A stretch of DNA of 58,715 nucleotides from an uncultured Gammaproteobacteria bacterium (GTDB lineage Bacteria; Patescibacteriota; Patescibacteriia; UBA9934; GWF2-40-263), in NCBI GenBank assembly GCA_964588505.1, contig CAZPPQ010000001.1:1-58715 (forward strand), in the 5' to 3' direction. Under the pieces are notes generated by a model. It saw only the letters and a program-made list of their open reading frames with translations. It made no database searches and was not told the origin of the DNA. Made by a program: the position numbers and the translations under genes. Below, in pieces: positions 3-52,433 of this stretch (position 1 is its first letter; each line of letters begins with the position of its first letter).

Positions 3-575
3 GAACCGCTCCTCGTCTCCTGCAAGAGCAAATCCGCATGTATAAAATAGGCTGTCCACGAGGCTAGCCCAGAGGCTGTCCCCGAGGCTGTCCCCGAGGC
101 TGTCCCCGAGGCTAGCCCAGAGGCTGTCCCCGAGGCTGGCCCAGAGGCTGTCCACGAGGCTGGCACGGAGGCTGTCCCCGAGGCTGTCCCCGAGGCTGTC
201 CCCGAGGCTGGCCCAGAGGCTGTCCCCGAGGCTGTCTCCGAGGCTGGCCCAGAGGCTGGCCCAGAGGCTGTCCCGGAGGCTGTCCCAGAGGCTGTCTCGA
301 TAAACATTTTCGGTCATCCATTCCGGCTTTGGGAAAGGATGCTTCCGACTTACAAACACCACCTTTTCAACAGGCCTGCCTGTCGCTTTTGCAACAGCAA
401 CGGCGTAGGCGACAGCATTAATTTTCTTGTCAGGAACAAGCGGAAGCTTGCCTGTCTCCGCAACTTTGACCCAATGGACCAGAGCTTCCTCAACTCTTGT
501 CCAAAAGGCCATTTTGTCTTGCTTTTGGAAAAGATCTCTCAAAGGAGCAAGATCAACTTTGTTCATTTCTGCCAT
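3..575 (-). CDS. partial CDS running off the left edge: ~90-aa unknown N-terminal domain followed by about 20 tetrapeptide [D/A]-S-L-[W/G/R] repeats
   Basis: ATG at 575 with GGAG 7 nt upstream. I checked every plus-strand triplet starting at positions divisible by 3 from 573 down to 3 and found no tta/cta/tca. Absent from the ORF track, presumably because there is no stop in the window. Translation: MAEMNKVDLAPLRDLF...RDSLWDSLRDSLWASLWASLGDSLGDSL... Confidence 0.6.
   Translation of the reverse strand, partial: MAEMNKVDLAPLRDLFQKQDKMAFWTRVEEALVHWVKVAETGKLPLVPDKKINAVAYAVAVAKATGRPVEKVVFVSRKHPFPKPEWMTENVYRDSLWDSLRDSLWASLWASLGDSLGDSLWASLGDSLGDSLGDSLRASLVDSLWASLGDSLWASLGDSLGDSLGDSLWASLVDSLFYTCGFALAGDEERF
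51..299. repeat. tandem 12-bp repeat, about 20 units (variants gaggctgtcccc / gaggctggccca)
   Basis: Direct reading of lines 51-300. Unit variants differ at 2-4 positions. The array encodes the tetrapeptide repeats of the edge CDS. Confidence 0.9.
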
Positions 576-724
576 TGCGGTTCTCCTTTCTTCTTGTTGG
601 TTGGAAAAGAACAACCGCGAACCTTACTCCAAAGACGATTTTTGGTCAAGGTTTCTCATTTATTCCCGGGCGAAGGCATGGCGAGCATCTCGACAAGCTC
701 GATGAATAACAGGTCGCAATCTCT

Positions 725-795
725 TTTCCGGAATCCTTCCTCGCATCCGGAAAACATTTCTCGCTTTCATCCTGGAATTGACTTTTGCGGAGATC
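725..795 (-). repeat. degenerate half-copy of the F1 long-hairpin element
   Basis: The reverse complement aligns to the left arm of the elements at 3905 and 34202 (gatct.tgcaaaagtc...ttccggatgcgaggaaggattccggaaa) with about 6 mismatches. It abuts the permease stop codon at 797. Confidence 0.6.
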
Positions 796-796
796 A

Positions 797-1603
797 CTAT
801 ACTTTTCGTTTGAAAATTAACCCAAGAAAAAATAATGCGGTGCTGACGAGCACGATCGAGGCGCCGGAAGGAAGATTAAATTGATACGAAAGGAAAAGAC
901 CGATGATTACCGCAAATTCAGAGAGAACGACGGCGGCGTAAAAATACGATTTGAACGAGCCTGTGAGCAGGCGACTTGTGGCCGGCGGGATGATGAGAAG
1001 CGCGGAAATCAGAATGATTCCAAGAATTTTCACACCAAGCACGGTTGTGATCGCGAGCATGACATACAATGCGAGCGTGTGCCATTGCGTGCGAATGCCG
1101 GAAACCGCCGCGGTTTCTTCTGAAAGCGAGAGCAAAGTCAACGGACGGAATACGCGCCAGAGCCAGAATCCCATCACAAGGAATAGCCCGGCAATCGCGT
1201 ACACATCGGTTATACTGATTGCTAGGATATTTCCGAATAGATATGTAAGAAGCTCTGGCTGATAGCCTTTTGTCAGGCTCATCAAGACAACACCGAGCGC
1301 CATGCTGGCCGTGAACGCAATACCGATCAGTGTGTCAGAAGAGAGTCGTGTTTTGCGCTCGAACCAAAACAAAGCGAGCGCGACAAAAATTGCCCAGGCA
1401 ATCGCGATCGGAAGCGGAGCCATGCCGGCCAAAACAGCAATCGCGATGCCGGCAAGCGACGCGTGCGCGATCCCTTCGCCGAACAGCGCCATCCCGCGGA
1501 GCGTTACGAACACTCCGAGACTCGCGAGCATCGGGGCAATCAGTACGCTTGCCATCACAGCGCGCTGGAGAAATGGAAATTGCAGGAGATCTTGAAAAAA
1601 CAT
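797..1603 (-). CDS. metal (Zn/Mn-type) ABC transporter permease, ABC-3 family
   Basis: 268 aa, multi-pass membrane protein. The N-terminus (FPFLQRAVMASVLIA...GEGIAHASLAGIAIAV) is typical of ZnuB/MntB/TroCD permeases. Lies in an operon with ATPase and binding-protein genes. Confidence 0.85.
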   Translation of the reverse strand: MFFQDLLQFPFLQRAVMASVLIAPMLASLGVFVTLRGMALFGEGIAHASLAGIAIAVLAGMAPLPIAIAWAIFVALALFWFERKTRLSSDTLIGIAFTASMALGVVLMSLTKGYQPELLTYLFGNILAISITDVYAIAGLFLVMGFWLWRVFRPLTLLSLSEETAAVSGIRTQWHTLALYVMLAITTVLGVKILGIILISALLIIPPATSRLLTGSFKSYFYAAVVLSEFAVIIGLFLSYQFNLPSGASIVLVSTALFFLGLIFKRKV

Positions 1604-1618
1604 ATGACTTTTTAATTT

Positions 1619-1640
1619 CCTAACTCCCTAACTCCCTAAA
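1619..1640. repeat. octamer array (cctaactc units) between permease and ATPase genes
   Basis: cctaactccctaactccctaaa read directly; 8-nt period with CTAA cores. Confidence 0.7.
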
Positions 1641-1642
1641 AG

Positions 1643-2401
1643 TTACAAATGATGCTCATGATGAAACGGCGTTGCGCGCGTGTGATACAGCTCGGACAAA
1701 TGTTTCTCGGTAAGCGCGTGCTTTGGCGAGCCTGTGCAAAGAATCCGCTTGTTGAGACAAATGACTTGGCCAACCAGCCGATCCACCATCGAGATGTCGT
1801 GGGACACCATAAGGACGGTTGTGCCGTGTTCGTGATTCAGATGATCAATCACATCATAAAGCGCCGTTTCACCAACCATATCAATCCCGGTCGAGGGCTC
1901 GTCAAGAAAAAGGATGCTCGGATCATTCAAAATCGCCTGAGCCACGAGAACACGTTGAAGCTGGCCGCCAGAAAGGTGCCCGATGCGTTTTGTTAAAACA
2001 GATTGTGCAATCCCGACTTCCTCGAGCTTTTGACGAATGCTTGCTTTCGGATTGCGATAGTGCCTCGCCAGATCCATAAATTCATGCACGGTGATCGGAA
2101 ATTCGCGATCAAAAGAAAATTTCTGCGGCACATAGCCGATCTCTTTGCGCACTTCTGAAATCGGCTTGCCTTGTAATAAGACGCGGCCGGACCCAAACGG
2201 AAGCAGGCCGAGCATGGCACACATGAGCGTTGTTTTTCCGGATCCGTTCGGGCCGATAATCGCGGCAATCGTTCCATGAGTTATGGAAAACGAAATATCC
2301 TCCAGCACGCGCTGGGTTCCAAGAGTGATGGAGAGACCCTCGACCGAAATTGCCGGAACATCCTTGTGATCCTTATGGATTGTCGGCGATGGCTTTAGCA
2401 T
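1643..2401 (-). CDS. metal ABC transporter ATP-binding protein
   Basis: Walker A GPNGSGKTT, ABC signature LSGGQLQRV, Walker B ILFLDEP. Confidence 0.9.
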   Translation of the reverse strand: MLKPSPTIHKDHKDVPAISVEGLSITLGTQRVLEDISFSITHGTIAAIIGPNGSGKTTLMCAMLGLLPFGSGRVLLQGKPISEVRKEIGYVPQKFSFDREFPITVHEFMDLARHYRNPKASIRQKLEEVGIAQSVLTKRIGHLSGGQLQRVLVAQAILNDPSILFLDEPSTGIDMVGETALYDVIDHLNHEHGTTVLMVSHDISMVDRLVGQVICLNKRILCTGSPKHALTEKHLSELYHTRATPFHHEHHL

Positions 2402-3868: not shown

Positions 3869-3897
3869 TTGACATCCAGATGCATTTACGAATAAAA
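3869..3897 (+). promoter_or_regulatory. possible promoter reading into F1 element and lysS
   Basis: TTGACA, 17-nt spacer, ATAAAA (4/6 match to the -10 consensus). Confidence 0.35.
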
Positions 3898-3904
3898 TAC
3901 AGCA

Positions 3905-4065
3905 GGGATCTCTGCAAAAGTCCATTTCAGGATGAAAGCGAGGAATGTTTTCCGGATGCGAGGAAGGATTCCGGAAATGATATCGCCATATCATTGAGGA
4001 ATCCTGACGACGCAGCCGGAAAACATAACCGCTTTCAGGCCGGAAGCGACTTTTGCAGAGGTCCC
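3905..4065 (+). repeat. F1 long-hairpin (MITE/RPE-like) element, copy A, 161 nt
   Basis: 18-nt terminal inverted repeats gggatctctgcaaaagtc / gacttttgcagaggtccc. Nested internal pairings: gaaagcg/cgctttc, atgttttccgg/ccggaaaacat, aggattcc/ggaatcct, atgatat/atatcat. 160/161 identical to the copy at 34202. Confidence 0.85.
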
Positions 4066-4163
4066 CATAGATAGTGCCGTATTTTTGAAAGTCCTGGAGC
4101 CTCACCCGCCCGAACAAACGAATTTCGCACTGTCGTCTGGTCGGGCGGGCGCCCAAAGCCCTT

Positions 4164-6796: not shown

Positions 6797-6806
6797 TCGG
6801 CAAGAA

Positions 6807-6871
6807 GGGCGTTAGGCTCTAGGCTTTAGGACATTAAAGTTTAAATCCTTAACTCCCTAAATCCCTAACGG
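6807..6871. repeat. inverted pair of octamer arrays (ggcgttag/ggctctag ... ctaactcc/ctaaatcc)
   Basis: gggcgttaggctctaggctttagg, 11-nt spacer, taaatccttaactccctaaatccctaacgg. Fills the alr to ftsQ-like intergenic gap. Confidence 0.8.
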
Positions 6872-6877
6872 CTACCT

Positions 6878-7732
6878 ATGTCATCCACAGGAGGATATTT
6901 TCGACAAACGCAACGGAAACGTCTCGTGGTGCGGCCGTATCAAAATCCTTATTTCAGGCGCGAGCCGAAACGAAACTGGCGGAGATGGCTATTCATCGGG
7001 ATCGGATGCGTTTCGGCCGGGCTCGTATTCTTTTTTTTGGCCGCGCCGTGGTTTGAAATCCACGCGGTTGAAATCCGCGGAACCGAAATTCTCGTCCCTC
7101 GTGAAATCGAAGTGCGCGTCCGCGATCATCTCAACCAAAGACGTTTTTTTTCCTTTAAGAATGGCAATCAATTTCTCTTCCGACCGCAAGAATTAACAAA
7201 GGCTCTTGAAAAACAATACGTATTTGAATCTCTTTCCGTTATGAGGGAGGGCGGAACCGTGCGCATTGACATCCGCGAAAAACAATCCGAACTGGTGTGG
7301 ATGACACCTGAGAAAACCTATATCATTGATCGTGAAGGAGTCGTTCTCCGAACACTCTCGCAAGAAGAGAGCGGGGCGCGAGAAAATGGAACAGACCCTT
7401 TTGCTAGACTGCTTCAGTGCCGCAGTATGCAAAAACAGGCTCTATCGGTCGGGGCGTCGGTTCTCAACCCTTCTGAAGTCGAGACGCTTTTTTTCTTTCG
7501 GCGCGAGTGGGAACCGCTCGGAATTTTTATCAAGGAGATCAAAATTGATCGCGCTTCCGGCTCATGGATGACCGCAAAAACAGGGTTGGGATTTGAAATC
7601 CTTTTTGATCCGAACGGATCGGCTAAAGATCAAACATCCAACCTTTTTACGGTTTTTCGCGATCAAATCAAGGATCCCGGTCTACTTGAATATATTGATC
7701 TGCGGTTTGGAAATCACGTCTATTACAAATAG
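6878..7732 (+). CDS. FtsQ-like cell division protein (TM + POTRA)
   Basis: Basic N-terminus, one TM (WLFIGIGCVSAGLVFFFLA), then a POTRA-like segment IHAVEIRGTEILVPREI. Confidence 0.55.
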   Translation: MSSTGGYFRQTQRKRLVVRPYQNPYFRREPKRNWRRWLFIGIGCVSAGLVFFFLAAPWFEIHAVEIRGTEILVPREIEVRVRDHLNQRRFFSFKNGNQFLFRPQELTKALEKQYVFESLSVMREGGTVRIDIREKQSELVWMTPEKTYIIDREGVVLRTLSQEESGARENGTDPFARLLQCRSMQKQALSVGASVLNPSEVETLFFFRREWEPLGIFIKEIKIDRASGSWMTAKTGLGFEILFDPNGSAKDQTSNLFTVFRDQIKDPGLLEYIDLRFGNHVYYK

Positions 7733-12189: not shown

Positions 12190-12204
12190 AGAAAGGCATT
12201 AAAA

Positions 12205-12248
12205 GCTCTAGGGATTTAGGCTCTAGGGATTTAGGCTCTAGGCTTTAG
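12205..12248. repeat. octamer array, GGNNNTAG orientation (ggctctag/ggatttag x5)
   Basis: gctctagggatttaggctctagggatttaggctctaggctttag, immediately 3' of the GT26 gene. Confidence 0.85.
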
Positions 12249-12256
12249 TCCTCAAC

Positions 12257-13144
12257 TTAATTCCCGACCTCTGACTTCTCCTCTTTATGAAATACTTGTC
12301 GGAAAATTTCCGGGACCGCGCGACGAAACGCGCGCAAGAAGATTCGATGCTTCAGTGTACTCCAAACGACCGCGGCTGGAAAGACGAGGATGGCGTTCCA
12401 GATCCTACGAAATCGTTTTGGTTCTTGCGCTAAGCGCCACACCCACTCGAGTCCGGATCGGCTCATCCATGCCGGAGCACGGGCAATCGTTCCGCTTTGC
12501 ACGTCGAACGCGCCGCCGACCCCGATGCCGATGCGCAGTGATGGAAGTAATGGAGCAACGTGGCATAAAAAGAATTCCTGCTTTTTCTGTCCGAGCCCGA
12601 CGGCGAGCACATCCGGAGCTTCGTTTCGGAGTCGAGTCATGATACCTCCCCATACCCCCTTCTTGGCAGGAGGGGGCATTTCTTGCATTCCTCCCCTGCC
12701 AAGGGCAGGTAAGCAGGGGTCGCCTAACTCGACCACTCCCGGATCGAATCCAAACACGCGAAGCGACGGAAACTTGGTTTTCAAAAATACAGCTGCTTTT
12801 TCCGCGCTTCCTGGTAAGCCTCCGACAAGCCCGAGCGTCTTCCCTTTCTCTGTACAAAGTTTCGCGAGCAGAAAAAGCGTGTCCGTTCCTGTATGCCGAT
12901 GTTGAAGAAGGTTTGGCGTGAGCGCCGCAATGGCAAACCGCATTCCGACCCCGTCTGGAAGAGCCAGGTCGGCTTTATGTAACAATTCATAAAATTCTTC
13001 GTCTTCCCTTGCCTGCAGTAAAAACTCCGGATTCAAAGTTGTGATAAGATGGAACGAAGGCGAGGCAAGATCATCTGAAAGAATCTCTAAAAGTCCAGCG
13101 AGAGGGATATCATCAATTTTTACGCCAAAAATTTCGTGTTTCAT
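12257..13144 (-). CDS. WecB/TagA/CpsF-family (GT26) glycosyltransferase
   Basis: 295 aa. N-terminus FGVKIDDIPL and C-terminus GLEWVWRLAQEPKRFRR are typical of GT26. Contains an apparent ~30-aa insertion encoded by a palindromic stretch (12662-12704). Confidence 0.75.
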   Translation of the reverse strand: MKHEIFGVKIDDIPLAGLLEILSDDLASPSFHLITTLNPEFLLQAREDEEFYELLHKADLALPDGVGMRFAIAALTPNLLQHRHTGTDTLFLLAKLCTEKGKTLGLVGGLPGSAEKAAVFLKTKFPSLRVFGFDPGVVELGDPCLPALGRGGMQEMPPPAKKGVWGGIMTRLRNEAPDVLAVGLGQKKQEFFLCHVAPLLPSLRIGIGVGGAFDVQSGTIARAPAWMSRSGLEWVWRLAQEPKRFRRIWNAILVFPAAVVWSTLKHRIFLRAFRRAVPEIFRQVFHKEEKSEVGN

Positions 13145-13179
13145 AAATCCCTAAATCCCTAACTCCCTAGAGCCTTTAG
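13145..13179. repeat. octamer array, CTANNNCC orientation (inverted relative to 12205-12248)
   Basis: aaatccctaaatccctaactccctagagcctttag, immediately 5' of the GT26 gene. Confidence 0.85.
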
Positions 13180-13206
13180 TCTTTTGAATCATCCTATCGA
13201 ATCCGC

Positions 13207-13286: not shown

Positions 13287-13447
13287 GGGGCTGTCGCCGA
13301 ATGTGCTTTTGAAGCGAAATGGCTGAATTTCGAGACAGAATCGTTGAATAAATTTTGAGGTTTATCAGTAGATAAGCCGAAAAATTTTGAAACGATTATG
13401 ACCGAAATTCAGACATTACAGCCAAAATGACATTCGGCGACAGACCC
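13287..13447 (+). repeat. F2 long-hairpin (MITE-like) element, copy A, 161 nt
   Basis: Terminal inverted repeats ggggctgtcgccgaatgt / acattcggcgacagaccc. Internal pairings ctgaatttcg/cgaaattcag and aatcgtt/aacgatt. About 93% identical to the copy at 21912. Confidence 0.85.
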
Positions 13448-13472
13448 TTTATAGGAAAAAAAGGAGAATTTT

Positions 13473-13506
13473 CTCCTATAAGCTATTCCCTATAACCTAT
13501 AAGCTT
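13473..13506. repeat. octamer array cctataag/ctattccc/ctataacc (right flank of F2 copy A)
   Basis: ctcctataagctattccctataacctataagctt read directly, 16 nt before the clpB ATG. Confidence 0.75.
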
Positions 13507-18834: not shown

Positions 18835-19620
18835 ATGATTGTCTTTGCGGCTTTTACGCCACATTCTCCGCTTTTGATGCCAGCCATCGGGATAGCAAAG
18901 GAAAAACAACAGAAGAAAACTTCAGAGGCCATGCGCCTCCTCTCTTCGCGTTTGCGAAAAACAAAACCGGAAACGATTGTCGTTATTTCTTCCCACAGCT
19001 TCCAGCACAAGACGGCTTTTTCCATCAATCTGCACGACCGTTATATGACGGATCTTTCAAAATACGGAGACCTTGGCGCGCATAAAACATTCTTGCCGGA
19101 TGTACAGACGATTGACCAGGCCCAACGTTTTTTGCGAGGTCAGGATATACCGGTTACGCTGGATTCTGAAGAGACATTGGATTACAGCATTGCGGTCCCG
19201 CTTCTTCTGCTCACGGACAAACTGTCAGCGAAAATCATCCCGATCTCTTACAGTGGCCTCGGACCGAAAGAACATGCGGCCTTTGGCAATGCCCTTCGCG
19301 AGATCCTTTCCAGAAGTTCGAAACGTATCGCTCTGATTGCGACCGGGGATCTTTCCCACGCGCTCGAAAGTTCCGGACCGGCCGGATTCAAGCCGGAAGG
19401 AAAAAAATTTGATGATGCAGTCGCCGAAGCGATAAAACAGAAATCCCTCTCAAAGCTGCTTTCGCTCGACGAACAGATCGTGCGAGCATCATCGGAATGC
19501 GCCTACCTCCCCCTGCTCATTCTTTTCGGCGCTTTGGAAAAAATTCGTATGCGATCCGAGATTCTTTCTTACGAGACTCCATTCGGTGTAGGATATTTGG
19601 TCGCGGAATTTCATCTTTAG
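18835..19620 (+). CDS. class III extradiol dioxygenase subunit B / Memo-like family protein
   Basis: 261 aa. The N-terminus FAAFTPHSPLL and overall pattern resemble the LigB/Memo fold, from family-level recollection only. The stop TAG lies inside the first repeat unit. Confidence 0.5.
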   Translation: MIVFAAFTPHSPLLMPAIGIAKEKQQKKTSEAMRLLSSRLRKTKPETIVVISSHSFQHKTAFSINLHDRYMTDLSKYGDLGAHKTFLPDVQTIDQAQRFLRGQDIPVTLDSEETLDYSIAVPLLLLTDKLSAKIIPISYSGLGPKEHAAFGNALREILSRSSKRIALIATGDLSHALESSGPAGFKPEGKKFDDAVAEAIKQKSLSKLLSLDEQIVRASSECAYLPLLILFGALEKIRMRSEILSYETPFGVGYLVAEFHL

Positions 19621-19739
19621 GCGTTAGGGAGTTAGGGCGTTAGGAAGTTAAAGAAAATAAGAAGACCTAAATCCCTAGAGACTAAATCCCTAGAGCCTAG
19701 AGCCTAAATCCCTAGAGTCTAGAGCCTAACACCTAATCC
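19616..19739. repeat. largest inverted octamer-array pair in the window
   Basis: tttaggcgttagggagttagggcgttaggaagttaa, then a spacer, then cctaaatccctagagactaaatccctagagcctagagcctaaatccctagagtctagagcctaacacctaatcc. Fills the whole intergenic gap. Confidence 0.9.
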
Positions 19740-21429: not shown

Positions 21430-21912
21430 ATGGCCATTCTCCCGATTCTCAAAGAACCGAACGAAATACTACGACAGATCGCAAAGCCTGTTTCTCTTGA
21501 CGATCTCGCGAAACCCGAAATACAAAACGTATTGGATGATATGGTCCATACCATGCATGTCGCGAAAGGGATCGGGCTTGCGGCGCCGCAAGTCGGCATA
21601 TCAAAACGGCTGATTGTGGTTTTGATGGGCGAGAAGCCGCGGATTTTTATCAATCCGGAAATCATTTCTTCGGCTTTCCGCAAAGTGGAAAGCGAGGAAG
21701 GATGCCTCTCGGTCCCTGGCGTGTTCGGGATCGTCAAACGAACACGCGGTGTTGAAGTCAAAGCGCTGGATCGCAACGGAAAATGCGTCACGGTAAAAAC
21801 GAACGGATTGCCGGCGATCATTTTTCAGCACGAGATTGATCATCTGAACGGAACACTCTTTATCGATAAAATAGAACGGCTTACCGAACACCACGAAACA
21901 GAAACGTTATAG
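21430..21912 (+). CDS. def: peptide deformylase
   Basis: Motifs GIGLAAPQ, EEGCLSVPG and QHEIDHLNG. ATG 21430 (MAILPIL...) was chosen to avoid overlap with the upstream gene. Confidence 0.9.
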   Translation: MAILPILKEPNEILRQIAKPVSLDDLAKPEIQNVLDDMVHTMHVAKGIGLAAPQVGISKRLIVVLMGEKPRIFINPEIISSAFRKVESEEGCLSVPGVFGIVKRTRGVEVKALDRNGKCVTVKTNGLPAIIFQHEIDHLNGTLFIDKIERLTEHHETETL

Positions 21913-22073
21913 GGGTCTGTCGCCGAATGTGCTTTTGAAGCGAAACGGCTGAATTTCGAGATAGAATCGTTGAATAAATTTTGAAGTTTATCAGGAGATA
22001 AGCCTAAAAATTTTGAAGCGATTATAGCCGAAATTCAGACATGGCAGCCAAAACGACATTCGGCGACAGACCC
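21912..22073 (+). repeat. F2 long-hairpin element, copy B, 162 nt
   Basis: ggggtctgtcgccgaatgt...acattcggcgacagaccc, flanked by tata on both sides. Sits between def and fmt. Confidence 0.85.
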
Positions 22074-22098
22074 TATAGACCCTTTTATAAAATATCTT

Positions 22099-30924: not shown

Positions 30925-30945
30925 ATTAGGCGTTAGGCGTTAGCC
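30925..30945. repeat. octamer units ggcgttag x2 inside the ribosomal operon
   Basis: attaggcgttaggcgttagcc between rpsM and rpsK. Confidence 0.7.
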
Positions 30946-30985
30946 ATCGAATCGAGCTACATGCAAAAGGCTAAAGGCTGGGTCT

Positions 30986-31902: not shown

Positions 31903-32002
31903 TTAGGTGATAGCTTAGAGGTGATAGCTTATAAAAATTGGCTCATAAAAGCGATAAAAAATCTCCTATAAACTATAAGCTATAAGCTAAAACCTATAAG
32001 CC
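31903..32002. repeat. inverted octamer arrays (ggtgatag/gcttatag ... cctataag/ctataagc)
   Basis: ttaggtgatagcttagaggtgatagcttataa, then a spacer, then ctcctataaactataagctataagctaaaacctataagcc. The last unit supplies the alaS stop codon (minus-strand gcttatag). Confidence 0.8.
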
Positions 32003-33862: not shown

Positions 33863-33872
33863 ACTGGGTTCT

Positions 33873-33897
33873 TGGGCGTTAGGCGTTAGGCTCTAGG
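33873..33897. repeat. octamer units ggcgttag/ggctctag upstream of alaS
   Basis: gggcgttaggcgttaggctctagga read directly. Confidence 0.75.
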
Positions 33898-33946
33898 ATT
33901 TTGTTTCGAATGAAGTGTACAAAAAATCAAGGCGGAGGTCTAGAGG

Positions 33947-34170: not shown

Positions 34171-34199
34171 AAATTATCAAAAAACAACTATTTTGTCAA
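34171..34199 (-). promoter_or_regulatory. sigma70-type promoter with extended -35 TTGACAAAAT
   Basis: Minus strand: TTGACA, 17-nt spacer, TAATTT. The -35 ends 2 nt from the F1 copy B boundary. Confidence 0.5.
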
Positions 34200-34201
34200 T
34201 A

Positions 34202-34362
34202 GGGATCTCTGCAAAAGTCCATTTCAGGATGAAAGCGAGGAATGTTTTCCGGATGCGAGGAAGGATTCCGGAAATGATATCGCCATATCATTGAGGAATC
34301 CTGACGACGCAGCCGGGAAACATAACCGCTTTCAGGCCGGAAGCGACTTTTGCAGAGGTCCC
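34202..34362 (+). repeat. F1 long-hairpin element, copy B, 161 nt
   Basis: Identical to copy A except one A-to-G change, which turns an A:T stem pair into G:T (G:U in RNA). Ends 11 nt from the murJ stop. Confidence 0.85.
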
Positions 34363-34373
34363 AATATCAAAAA

Positions 34374-47461: not shown

Positions 47462-47573
47462 AATAAAAGAAGTTAAGAGATAAAAGCTTGATTCCAGTGT
47501 AACATACGCAAAGAACGCGCCCGAGAGTGCTTGTCAACTGCGTGCGAAAACAGTATCCTCTCACTTTCCAACA

Positions 47574-47606
47574 CTCTAAAGCCTAACTCCCTAAATCCCT
47601 AGAGCC
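47574..47606. repeat. octamer array ctaaagcc/taactccc/taaatccc/tagagcc upstream of dus
   Basis: ctctaaagcctaactccctaaatccctagagcc read directly. Confidence 0.8.
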
Positions 47607-47629
47607 TTCATCGCCTTTAACGCCTTCCT

Positions 47630-52353: not shown

Positions 52354-52433
52354 GGCTTATAGCTTATAGGAATTAGCTTATAGGAATTGATAATTAACCG
52401 TTTTCTATCCTATAAGCTATAACCTATAAGCTT
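52354..52433. repeat. inverted octamer arrays (gcttatag/gaattagc ... cctataag/ctataacc)
   Basis: ggcttatagcttataggaattagcttataggaatt, 18-nt spacer, atcctataagctataacctataagctt. Fills the gap between the two genes. Confidence 0.85.

What the first reader, a model, noticed from the sequence alone, without database searches (positions are those of the whole stretch)
3905..4065. F1: a 161-nt long-hairpin element present in near-identical copies in untranslated regions
Two copies (3905-4065 and 34202-34362) differ at one base, and a diverged half-copy lies at 725-795 on the opposite strand. The element has 18-nt terminal inverted repeats and at least four nested internal helices, so almost the whole sequence folds into one long imperfect hairpin. 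The single difference converts an A:T stem pair to G:T, which remains a wobble pair in RNA. Both strands are free of stops in at least one frame, as in Rickettsia palindromic elements. Copy A sits between a possible promoter and lysS. Copy B lies 11 nt after the murJ stop, and the half-copy abuts the permease stop. I saw no clear target-site duplication. It is either a non-autonomous mobile element (MITE) or a structured RNA module.
Basis: seen in the sequence. Interest (0 to 1): 0.65.

Follow-up and report, generated by a model that had tools for sequence, protein, structure and literature searches.

The report
Hairpin mini-transposon (MITE) in Uhrbacteria
The 161-base hairpin repeat is a miniature, gene-less transposon that borrows the transposase of an IS5-family insertion sequence and has recently multiplied in a small-genome groundwater bacterium; it is a previously undescribed member of a well-known kind of element.

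Summary
There are two 161-nt copies, 160 of 161 bases identical, and an approximately 82-nt half-copy. Each full copy has 18-nt terminal inverted repeats and folds into one long hairpin (RNA -96 kcal/mol, z = -12.9).

It is a MITE. Related sequences gave 76 unique copies, mostly 160-163 nt. Of the 75 with readable flanks, 43 have a perfect 4-bp target-site duplication, against 1 of 75 in a shifted control. Copy A has none.

The same terminal repeats (16-18 of 18 bases) bound 1.2-kb insertion sequences. These encode a 321-aa IS5-family DDE transposase and also make 4-bp duplications. One sits in a Candidatus Uhrbacteria genome; another occurs in the same metagenomes as the window organism. The window itself has no transposase.

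Copies at least 97% identical occupy at least 12 sites in one groundwater sample, so the element was active recently.

The hairpin is kept by compensatory changes (25 of 50 pairs), and one strand consistently folds better. A second 161-nt element in the window shares the hairpin core but has different ends and a 5-bp duplication.

No Rfam family matches, and I found no paper describing MITEs in this bacterial group. Verdict: new member of a known kind, of moderate interest.

The parts
3905..4065 (+). MITE copy A, 161 nt, between greA and lysS. Left terminal repeat 3905-3922, right terminal repeat 4048-4065. Flanks AGCA and CATA, so no target-site duplication.
   Evidence: The same junctions appear in five independent assemblies.
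34202..34362 (+). MITE copy B, 161 nt, in the murJ-alaS intergenic region (both genes on the minus strand). One base differs from copy A.
34198..34201 (.). Left copy of the 4-bp target-site duplication AATA of copy B. The right copy is at 34363-34366.
716..797 (-). Truncated left-half copy (terminal repeat GTGATCTCCGCAAAAGTC, 2 mismatches). It ends near the hairpin apex and overlaps the TAG stop of the ABC-3 permease gene by one base.
3869..3898 (+). Sigma-70-like promoter match TTGACA-18-TAAAAT, 6 nt upstream of copy A. The predicted lysS transcript would start at about the first base of the MITE. This is an inference.
   Evidence: A homologous promoter lies upstream of lysS in relative L222, which has no MITE there.
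13287..13447 (+). Related 161-nt element (family 2). Its hairpin core is homologous to F1, but its terminal repeats differ (GGGGCTGTCGCCGAATGT). Flanks are CTTAT and TTTAT. It lies between wecG and clpB.
21913..22073 (+). Second family-2 element, 161 nt, with a 5-bp target-site duplication TATAG (21908-21912 and 22074-22078). It is inserted at the stop codon of def, in the def-fmt intergenic region.

Best explanation
F1 is a non-autonomous transposon (MITE) that depends on an IS5-family insertion sequence resident in Candidatus Uhrbacteria and related Patescibacteria.

Proposed mechanism: a 321-aa DDE transposase (DUF772 N-terminal domain plus DDE_Tnp_1 domain), encoded elsewhere, recognises the roughly 18-21-bp terminal repeats G(G/A)GA(C/T)CTCTGCAAAAGTC. 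It cuts the element out and pastes it into A+T-rich T-W-W-A sites with a 4-bp stagger, which leaves a 4-bp duplication.

Shown here: the terminal repeats, the 4-bp duplications, multiple copies at different sites, and full insertion sequences with the same ends and the same duplication length. Inferred: mobilisation in trans by that transposase.

The window lineage had a recent burst, with at least 12 sites carrying copies 97-100% identical in one groundwater sample. The half-copy is a decayed insertion. Copy A's mismatched flanks are best explained by a rearrangement or decay at the element; this is an inference.

The element is also a conserved, roughly 65-bp imperfect hairpin of fixed length. 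When transcribed, it would place a very stable stem at the 5' end of the lysS mRNA (copy A) and downstream of murJ (copy B). It may therefore affect mRNA stability or processing, as Correia and ERIC elements do. This effect is inferred and untested.
For: 1. Terminal repeats and hairpin in the window.
2. 76 unique paired-repeat copies in public genomes and metagenomes, with a length mode of 161 nt (32 copies) and most at 160-163 nt. 43 of 75 have perfect 4-bp duplications and 11 more have one mismatch, against 1 of 75 in the shifted control.
3. Duplicated sites are 78% A+T, with T favoured at position 1 and A at position 4.
4. Full elements of 1203-1215 bp carry the same ends. L146 and L121 have a left repeat identical 18 of 18. 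L194 (a Candidatus Uhrbacteria MAG), L195, L196/L197 and L204-L213 match 16 of 18. Their 4-bp duplications are TATT, TATA, TATT, TAAT and AATA.
5. The transposase matches Pfam DDE_Tnp_1 (1e-27) and DUF772 (3e-20), and NCBIfam NF033581 'IS5 family transposase' at 272-276 bits against a cutoff of 140.
6. Named relatives include IS5 transposases of Candidatus Uhrbacteria and Patescibacteria.
7. The insertion sequence occurs in the same metagenomes as the window organism.
8. Near-identical copies lie at 12 or more sites, and contigs break inside the element.
9. All named LysS relatives are Uhrbacteria or Patescibacteria.
10. The hairpin is conserved: 96.9% of cells are paired, 25 of 50 pairs show changes on both sides, and 0 of 500 shuffles reach this.
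Against: 1. No transposase homologue lies in the 58.7-kb window or in the other 1.3 Mb of fetched loci that hold MITE copies. Residence of the partner in the same genome is therefore not shown.
2. Similarity between the MITE and the insertion sequence stops after about 21-25 nt. The interior is not a simple deletion derivative.
3. Copy A lacks a duplication.
4. I found no clean empty-versus-filled allele pair. Relative L222 lacks the element after the orthologous promoter, but the downstream sequence is not alignable.
5. A plain cut-and-paste MITE does not by itself explain the conserved length, the whole-length compensatory hairpin, or the strand asymmetry.
Confidence: 0.88

Rival explanations
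1. The conserved hairpin core is the selected functional unit, acting as an RNA or single-stranded DNA structure (for example an mRNA-end stabiliser, an RNase III site or a protein-binding hairpin). The transposon ends are only its vehicle, which is why the core has been coupled to more than one kind of terminal repeat.
For: 1. Compensatory changes keep about 65 bp paired across subfamilies that are less than 70% identical.
2. Length is held at 160-163 nt.
3. One strand folds on average 15 kcal/mol better, and that strand matches the homology orientation in all 55 copies.
4. G.T mispairs outnumber A.C mispairs, 152 to 68.
5. The same core occurs with a different terminal repeat and a 5-bp duplication, in the window and in another Patescibacteria genome.
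6. Copy A sits exactly between the lysS promoter-like site and the gene.
Against: 1. Orientation relative to neighbouring genes is only weakly biased: 14 sense against 7 antisense for tandem contexts, which is not significant and rests on crude gene calls. Window copy B is antisense.
2. There is no Rfam match.
3. Palindrome arms can homogenise each other by template switching or gene conversion, which mimics compensatory change without selection.
4. The strand was chosen by folding energy, which inflates the G.T excess.
5. Subfamilies share ancestry, so there are few independent events.
Confidence: 0.2
2. It is a cis-regulatory or small-RNA gene that has been duplicated, not a mobile element.
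For: Strong fold, with z about -13. Location in untranslated regions next to lysS, murJ and the permease gene.
Against: 1. 4-bp duplications flank most copies.
2. Copies lie next to unrelated genes and in both orientations.
3. The ends match those of transposase-bearing insertion sequences.
4. No Rfam family reaches threshold. The best E-values are 0.26 and 0.51, to eukaryotic families.
Confidence: 0.03
3. It belongs to another repeat class: a REP/BIME element moved by a RAYT transposase, a Tn3-derived TIME, or a Rickettsia-type palindromic element that inserts in frame into genes.
For: 1. It is palindromic and intergenic like REP elements.
2. Its ends begin GGG like Tn3-family ends.
3. Stop-free frames occur on both strands in 14 of 35 copies against 2.4 expected, and 161 + 4 = 165 is a multiple of 3.
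Against: 1. REP elements are 20-40 nt and have no duplication. F1 is 161 nt with a 4-bp duplication.
2. Tn3-type elements make 5-bp duplications and have repeats of about 38 bp. F1 makes 4-bp duplications and has 18-21-bp repeats.
3. None of 69 restored insertion sites lies inside a real gene.
Confidence: 0.03

Closest known systems
Prokaryotic MITEs derived from IS5-family insertion sequences (IS5 group, which makes 4-bp duplications)
   Same: Small size and no transposase gene. Terminal repeats shared with a DDE IS5-family element. 4-bp duplication at A+T-rich sites. Many intergenic copies.
   Different: The interior is unrelated to the partner beyond about 25 nt. The whole element is one hairpin of fixed length, about 161 nt. 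The hosts are Uhrbacteria and other Patescibacteria, a group for which I found no paper describing MITEs. The large MITE census in PMC11602168 used RefSeq and excluded suspect MAGs.
Correia elements of Neisseria and ERIC/IRU elements of enterobacteria
   Same: Size of about 100-160 bp with terminal repeats. They are co-transcribed with neighbouring genes as long hairpins. In those systems the hairpin is cut by RNase III or changes transcript levels (PMC10969869). This is a plausible working model for F1 copies in untranslated regions.
   Different: There is no sequence similarity. My recollection, not tested here, is that Correia elements duplicate TA and have about 26-bp repeats and no known partner transposase. 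F1 has a 4-bp duplication and an identified IS5-type partner. No RNA-level effect has been shown for F1.
Rickettsia palindromic elements (RPEs)
   Same: Palindromic, about 150 bp, and often stop-free in some frames.
   Different: RPEs characteristically sit in frame inside genes (PMC10969869). All F1 copies tested are intergenic.
Tn3-derived inverted-repeat miniature elements (TIMEs)
   Same: Non-autonomous, with ends that begin GGG. The window's second family has a 5-bp duplication like Tn3-family elements, and mosaic non-autonomous elements are known for TIMEs (title of PMC4133298).
   Different: F1 has a 4-bp duplication and short repeats matching an IS5-type element. The partner of family 2 was not found.

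Membership tests
MITE (miniature inverted-repeat transposable element) | Short (tens to a few hundred bp) and without a transposase gene | tested here: met
   161 nt. Only stop-free frames, no gene.
MITE (miniature inverted-repeat transposable element) | Terminal inverted repeats | tested here: met
   18-nt repeats. 5 matches in the window against 0.06 expected. The repeats are conserved across the family.
MITE (miniature inverted-repeat transposable element) | Target-site duplication of fixed length flanking the copies | tested here: met
   43 of 75 copies have a perfect 4-bp duplication and 11 have one mismatch, against 1 of 75 in the control. Window copy B has AATA. Copy A is not flanked.
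MITE (miniature inverted-repeat transposable element) | Several copies at unrelated sites in one genome | tested here: met
   Two full copies and a half-copy in 58.7 kb. At least 12 sites with copies at least 97% identical in sample 3300025308. That all of these belong to one genome is inferred.
MITE (miniature inverted-repeat transposable element) | An autonomous element with matching ends and the same duplication length | tested here: met
   L146, L121, L194-L197 and L204-L213: 1.2-kb elements whose repeats match 16-18 of 18, with 4-bp duplications.
MITE (miniature inverted-repeat transposable element) | Empty and filled alleles of the same site (direct evidence of movement) | tested here: inconclusive
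   All strain-level contigs carry the element or break in it. Relative L222 lacks it after the orthologous lysS promoter, but the downstream flank is not alignable. L221 has a scaffold gap at that position.
IS5 family (partner element) | DDE transposase that matches the curated IS5-family model | tested here: met
   NF033581 at 272-276 bits against a cutoff of 140. Pfam DDE_Tnp_1 plus DUF772.
IS5 family (partner element) | Partner transposase encoded in the same genome as the window's copies | not testable with these tools
   Absent from the window. Present in the same metagenomes (3300009296, ERZ909578, ERZ27254845) and in a Candidatus Uhrbacteria MAG.
Rfam RNA families | Match to a curated covariance model at its gathering score | tested here: not met
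   Only a tRNA elsewhere in the window. At the element, the best E-values are 0.26 and 0.51, to eukaryotic families.
REP/BIME elements (moved by RAYT transposases) | 20-40-nt palindromes with no target duplication | tested here: not met
   The element is 161 nt and has a 4-bp duplication.
Rickettsia palindromic elements | In-frame insertion inside protein-coding genes | tested here: not met
   0 of 69 restored sites lie inside a real gene. The apparent read-through ORFs lie upstream of the true starts.
Tn3-derived TIMEs | 5-bp duplication and long (about 38-bp) Tn3-type terminal repeats | tested here: not met
   F1 has a 4-bp duplication and 18-21-bp repeats. The window's family 2 does have a 5-bp duplication, but its partner is unknown.

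The most novel reading that the evidence does not exclude
The roughly 120-nt hairpin core, rather than the transposon ends, may be the conserved and selected unit. On this reading it is a structured RNA or single-stranded DNA module that spreads through small Patescibacteria genomes by being coupled to at least two different transposase-recognition ends. One is the IS5 type, with a 4-bp duplication. The other has an unknown partner and a 5-bp duplication. The consistent G.U-tolerant strand would then mark the functional strand.
Probability: 0.18. Interest if true: 0.7.

Novelty: new member of a known kind. Interest (0 to 1): 0.4.

Why it matters
Candidate Phyla Radiation (Patescibacteria) bacteria have genomes of about 1 Mb with very short intergenic regions. 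I found no paper describing MITEs in them. The largest MITE census used RefSeq genomes and excluded suspect metagenome-assembled genomes (PMC11602168).

An active IS5 and MITE pair has three consequences. It explains why assemblies of these organisms break or join wrongly at particular sites. It provides a marker for strain-level variation. It also inserts a very stable hairpin between promoters and essential genes (lysS, and the def-fmt pair for the sister family), which could alter their expression.

If the shared hairpin core proves to be functional, it would be an example of a structured module that moves between transposition systems.

Tried and rejected
1. Rfam at gathering and at E-value thresholds found nothing relevant.
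2. blastn of the element against 72,556 plasmids gave only short chance matches.
3. Scans of viral contigs for both kinds of terminal repeat gave 7 hits. None has a partner repeat or a hairpin, so they are chance matches.
4. Single unpaired 18-mer hits in unrelated taxa (Tannerella, Paenibacillus, Cyanobium, an archaeon and others) were set aside. About 69 chance hits are expected in 596 Gb (my estimate).
5. I looked for a transposase next to unpaired repeats in 11 loci and found none. tblastn of the transposase against the window and all other loci hit only L146 and L121.
6. MAFFT plus RNAalifold on 31 divergent copies recovered only the outer stem, because the interior was misaligned. A 14-sequence alignment worked.
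7. My first gene-orientation analysis was spoiled by spurious ORFs reading through the stop-free element. I repeated it with the elements masked, but it is still crude.
8. Apparent intragenic insertions turned out to lie upstream of the true start codons.
9. Looking up names for the window's own proteins returned none.

Full report
**1. Observation**

The window holds two 161-nt copies, at 3905-4065 and 34202-34362. They differ at one base. A minus-strand left-half copy lies at about 716-797.

The ends are 18-nt inverted repeats, GGGATCTCTGCAAAAGTC and GGGACCTCTGCAAAAGTC. The window has 5 matches with up to 3 mismatches, against 0.06 expected.

The element folds into one imperfect hairpin:
- RNA, + strand: -96.0 kcal/mol, z = -12.9.
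- RNA, - strand: -87.5 kcal/mol, z = -10.3.
- DNA parameters: -56.8 kcal/mol, z = -12.1.

The single A-to-G difference keeps the same fold, at -95.5 kcal/mol. One frame on each strand is stop-free. Rfam gives no match at the gathering score or at E up to 1.

**2. Host**

Exact copies of the window's LysS occur only on groundwater metagenome contigs. All named LysS relatives, at 55-69% identity, are Candidatus Uhrbacteria, Patescibacteria or Parcubacteria.

Several assemblies break inside the element (L001, L198-L201). Two others join foreign flanks across it (L002, L193). This is the behaviour expected of a multi-copy repeat.

**3. Family**

I scanned 185,579 species genomes for the terminal 18-mer and the JGI metagenome collection for the commoner variant. 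About 69 chance hits are expected for the first pattern (my estimate), so I counted only paired, inverted hits.

These gave 76 unique elements. The length distribution is sharp: 32 copies at 161 nt, 10 at 162, 5 at 160 and 4 at 163.

Most of the 160-163-nt copies come from Candidatus Uhrbacteria and Patescibacteria MAGs. Some come from MAGs labelled 'uncultured Gammaproteobacteria'. The neighbouring genes of those MAGs resemble Uhrbacteria genes at up to 93% identity, so the label is doubtful.

Shorter elements (121-137 nt) have the same ends but unrelated interiors. They occur in Planctomycetota and Verrucomicrobiota MAGs and in the isolate Lautropia dentalis KCOM 2505, where the duplication is CTTG.

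**4. Transposition signature**

- 43 of 75 copies are flanked by a perfect 4-bp direct repeat, and 11 more by a repeat with one mismatch. A shifted control gives 1 of 75.
- The duplicated sites are 78% A+T and approximate T-W-W-A.
- Window copy B has AATA on both sides. Copy A has AGCA and CATA, and this is the same in five independent assemblies.
- In sample 3300025308, which also holds the window's lysS region, copies 97-100% identical to copy A lie at 12 or more distinct sites. Their duplications include CGAG, TATA, TCTA, ATAT, ACAA, TTAA and TAAA.

**5. Partner element**

Two metagenome contigs carry inverted repeats about 1.2 kb apart: L146 341-1543 and L121 177-1384. The left end, GGGACCTCTGCAAAAGTCGCT, is identical to the MITE end over 18-21 nt. 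Between the ends lies a 321-aa ORF.

The ORF matches Pfam DDE_Tnp_1 (1e-27) and DUF772 (3e-20). It also matches NCBIfam NF033581 'IS5 family transposase' at 272-276 bits, against a cutoff of 140.

It has 258 relatives at E of 1e-40 or better. Most sit on contigs of about 1.2 kb. Named ones include IS5 transposases of Candidatus Uhrbacteria (70% identity) and Patescibacteria (89%).

Full elements with flanks:

| Locus | Host or source | Duplication |
|---|---|---|
| L194 5907-7121 | Uhrbacteria MAG GCA_043808565.1 | TATT |
| L195 688-1894 | metagenome | TATA |
| L196 / L197 | metagenome | TATT |
| L204-L213 | metagenomes, two sites | TAAT and AATA |

The L204-L213 element has ends GAGACCTCTGCAAAACTC and GAGACCTCTGAAAAAGTT. 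It occurs in the same metagenomes as the window organism (3300009296, ERZ909578, ERZ27254845).

Two limits apply. The window and the other MITE-bearing loci contain no such transposase. Similarity between the MITE and the insertion sequence stops after about 21-25 nt.

**6. The hairpin is conserved**

Subfamilies fall below 70% identity, yet each folds into 57-69 bp at -65 to -116 kcal/mol.

On a 14-sequence alignment, 96.9% of cells form standard pairs. Column shuffles give 86%, and slid partners give 41-52%. 25 of 50 pairs show changes on both sides, and 0 of 500 shuffles reach the observed values.

One strand folds better by 15 kcal/mol on average (range 4-34). When copies are oriented by that strand, every one of 55 copies is also more similar in sequence to the others than when flipped. 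G.T mispairs outnumber A.C mispairs, 152 to 68.

Three caveats apply. The strand was chosen by folding energy. The subfamilies share ancestry. The arms of a palindrome can also correct each other without any selection.

Orientation relative to flanking genes is only weakly biased, at 14 sense against 7 antisense for tandem contexts, and it rests on crude ORF calls.

All copies tested are intergenic, and many lie within 0-30 nt of a gene end. Stop-free frames on both strands are commoner than in shuffles (14 of 35 against 2.4 expected). However, no copy lies inside a real gene.

**7. Local consequences (inferred)**

An 11-of-12 promoter match, TTGACA-18-TAAAAT, ends 6 nt before copy A. A homologous promoter precedes lysS in a relative with 83% LysS identity, and that relative has no MITE there (L222). 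The lysS transcript would therefore begin with the 161-nt hairpin.

Copy B lies between murJ and alaS, on the strand opposite to the better-folding one. Neither copy is followed by a run of T, and no terminator-like site overlaps either copy.

Copy A's unmatched flanks may reflect rearrangement at the element. In L222 an extra 515-aa gene lies between greA and the lysS promoter, and the sequence downstream of the promoter differs from the window's.

**8. A sister family**

The window's second palindromic repeat, at 13287-13447 and 21913-22073, is also exactly 161 nt. Its interior matches the F1 profile (E = 4e-8 and 2e-7). It is most similar in the alignment to the F1 subfamily of Patescibacteria H43-bin187. 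About 11 of the terminal 18 nt differ (GGG(G/T)CTGTCGCCGAATGT).

Its duplication is 5 bp: TATAG in the window and ATAAT in L132/L151. One copy sits exactly at the stop codon of def, in the def-fmt pair. I did not find its partner transposase.

**9. Comparison and verdict**

F1 meets every sequence-level criterion of a MITE. It pairs with an IS5-family element that makes 4-bp duplications. It is not a REP, TIME or RPE element, and it is not a known RNA family.

In the way it may act on transcripts, it most resembles Correia and ERIC elements (PMC10969869). That resemblance is an analogy and has not been tested here.

I found no paper on MITEs in Patescibacteria. The largest census did not cover such MAGs.

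It is a new member of a known kind. The fixed length, the compensatory hairpin, the strand asymmetry and the core shared between two kinds of ends remain unexplained and are worth following up.

Noticed in passing
window 13287-13447 and 21913-22073; also L132 8681-8841: A second 161-nt palindromic element shares F1's hairpin core but has different terminal repeats (GGGKCTGTCGCCRAATGT) and a 5-bp duplication (TATAG; ATAAT in L132). One copy sits exactly at the def stop codon, inside the def-fmt pair. Its partner transposase is unknown.
   Followed up: partly
window 1603-1651, 6806-6880, 12192-12250, 13142-13190, 19611-19735, 30925-30957, 33870-33902, 47568-47618; also 13469-13498, 31959-32002, 52355-52432; L222 2410-2490: Short tandem arrays of 7-8-nt units (TAAATCCC, CCTAACTC, CCTAGAG; a second kind is CTATAAG) appear at many places in both orientations. 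A similar array fills the lysS leader of relative L222, and a similar-looking sequence flanks the insertion sequence in L196. Their function is unknown.
   Followed up: no
window 49-296: A 12-nt tandem repeat (AGGCTGTCCCCG, about 20.7 copies, 84% matches), with a 24-nt super-period, lies at the start of the window.
   Followed up: no
window 4107-4150: A G+C-rich stem-loop (CCCGCCCGA...TCGGGCGGG) lies 14 nt upstream of the lysS start codon, between MITE copy A and the gene. Rfam gives no match for it.
   Followed up: no
L146 465-482, L194 6972-6989, L196 about 1635-1650: Several of the IS5-type partner elements (L146, L194, L196/L197) carry a second, internal right-end-like repeat just after the transposase stop codon. 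It is followed by a tail of about 115-130 nt, which contains its own hairpin in some copies, before the true right end.
   Followed up: partly
L002 1350-1360 and L193 845-850: Two public contigs join foreign flanks across the MITE (an FtsW/RodA-like gene to lysS, and the murJ-side flank to other DNA). These are either chimeric assemblies or real recombinants at the repeat.
   Followed up: partly
L221 2383-2480: In a relative with 82% LysS identity, the greA-lysS intergenic region is a run of N (a scaffold gap). This is consistent with an unresolved repeat at the same place.
   Followed up: no
L013, L020, L023, L025, L026, L028, L032, L034, L040, L047, L057, L060 and others: MAGs deposited as 'uncultured Gammaproteobacteria' carry the same MITE subfamilies as Uhrbacteria MAGs. 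Their neighbouring genes are up to 93% identical to those of Uhrbacteria MAGs, so the taxonomic label looks wrong.
   Followed up: partly
L017 1219-1353 and L081 about 2330-2461 (Lautropia dentalis KCOM 2505); L052, L062, L014: Elements with the same terminal repeats but unrelated, shorter interiors (121-137 nt; duplication CTTG in L017) occur in a cultured betaproteobacterium and in Planctomycetota and Verrucomicrobiota MAGs. This type of IS5 end is therefore widespread beyond Patescibacteria.
   Followed up: partly
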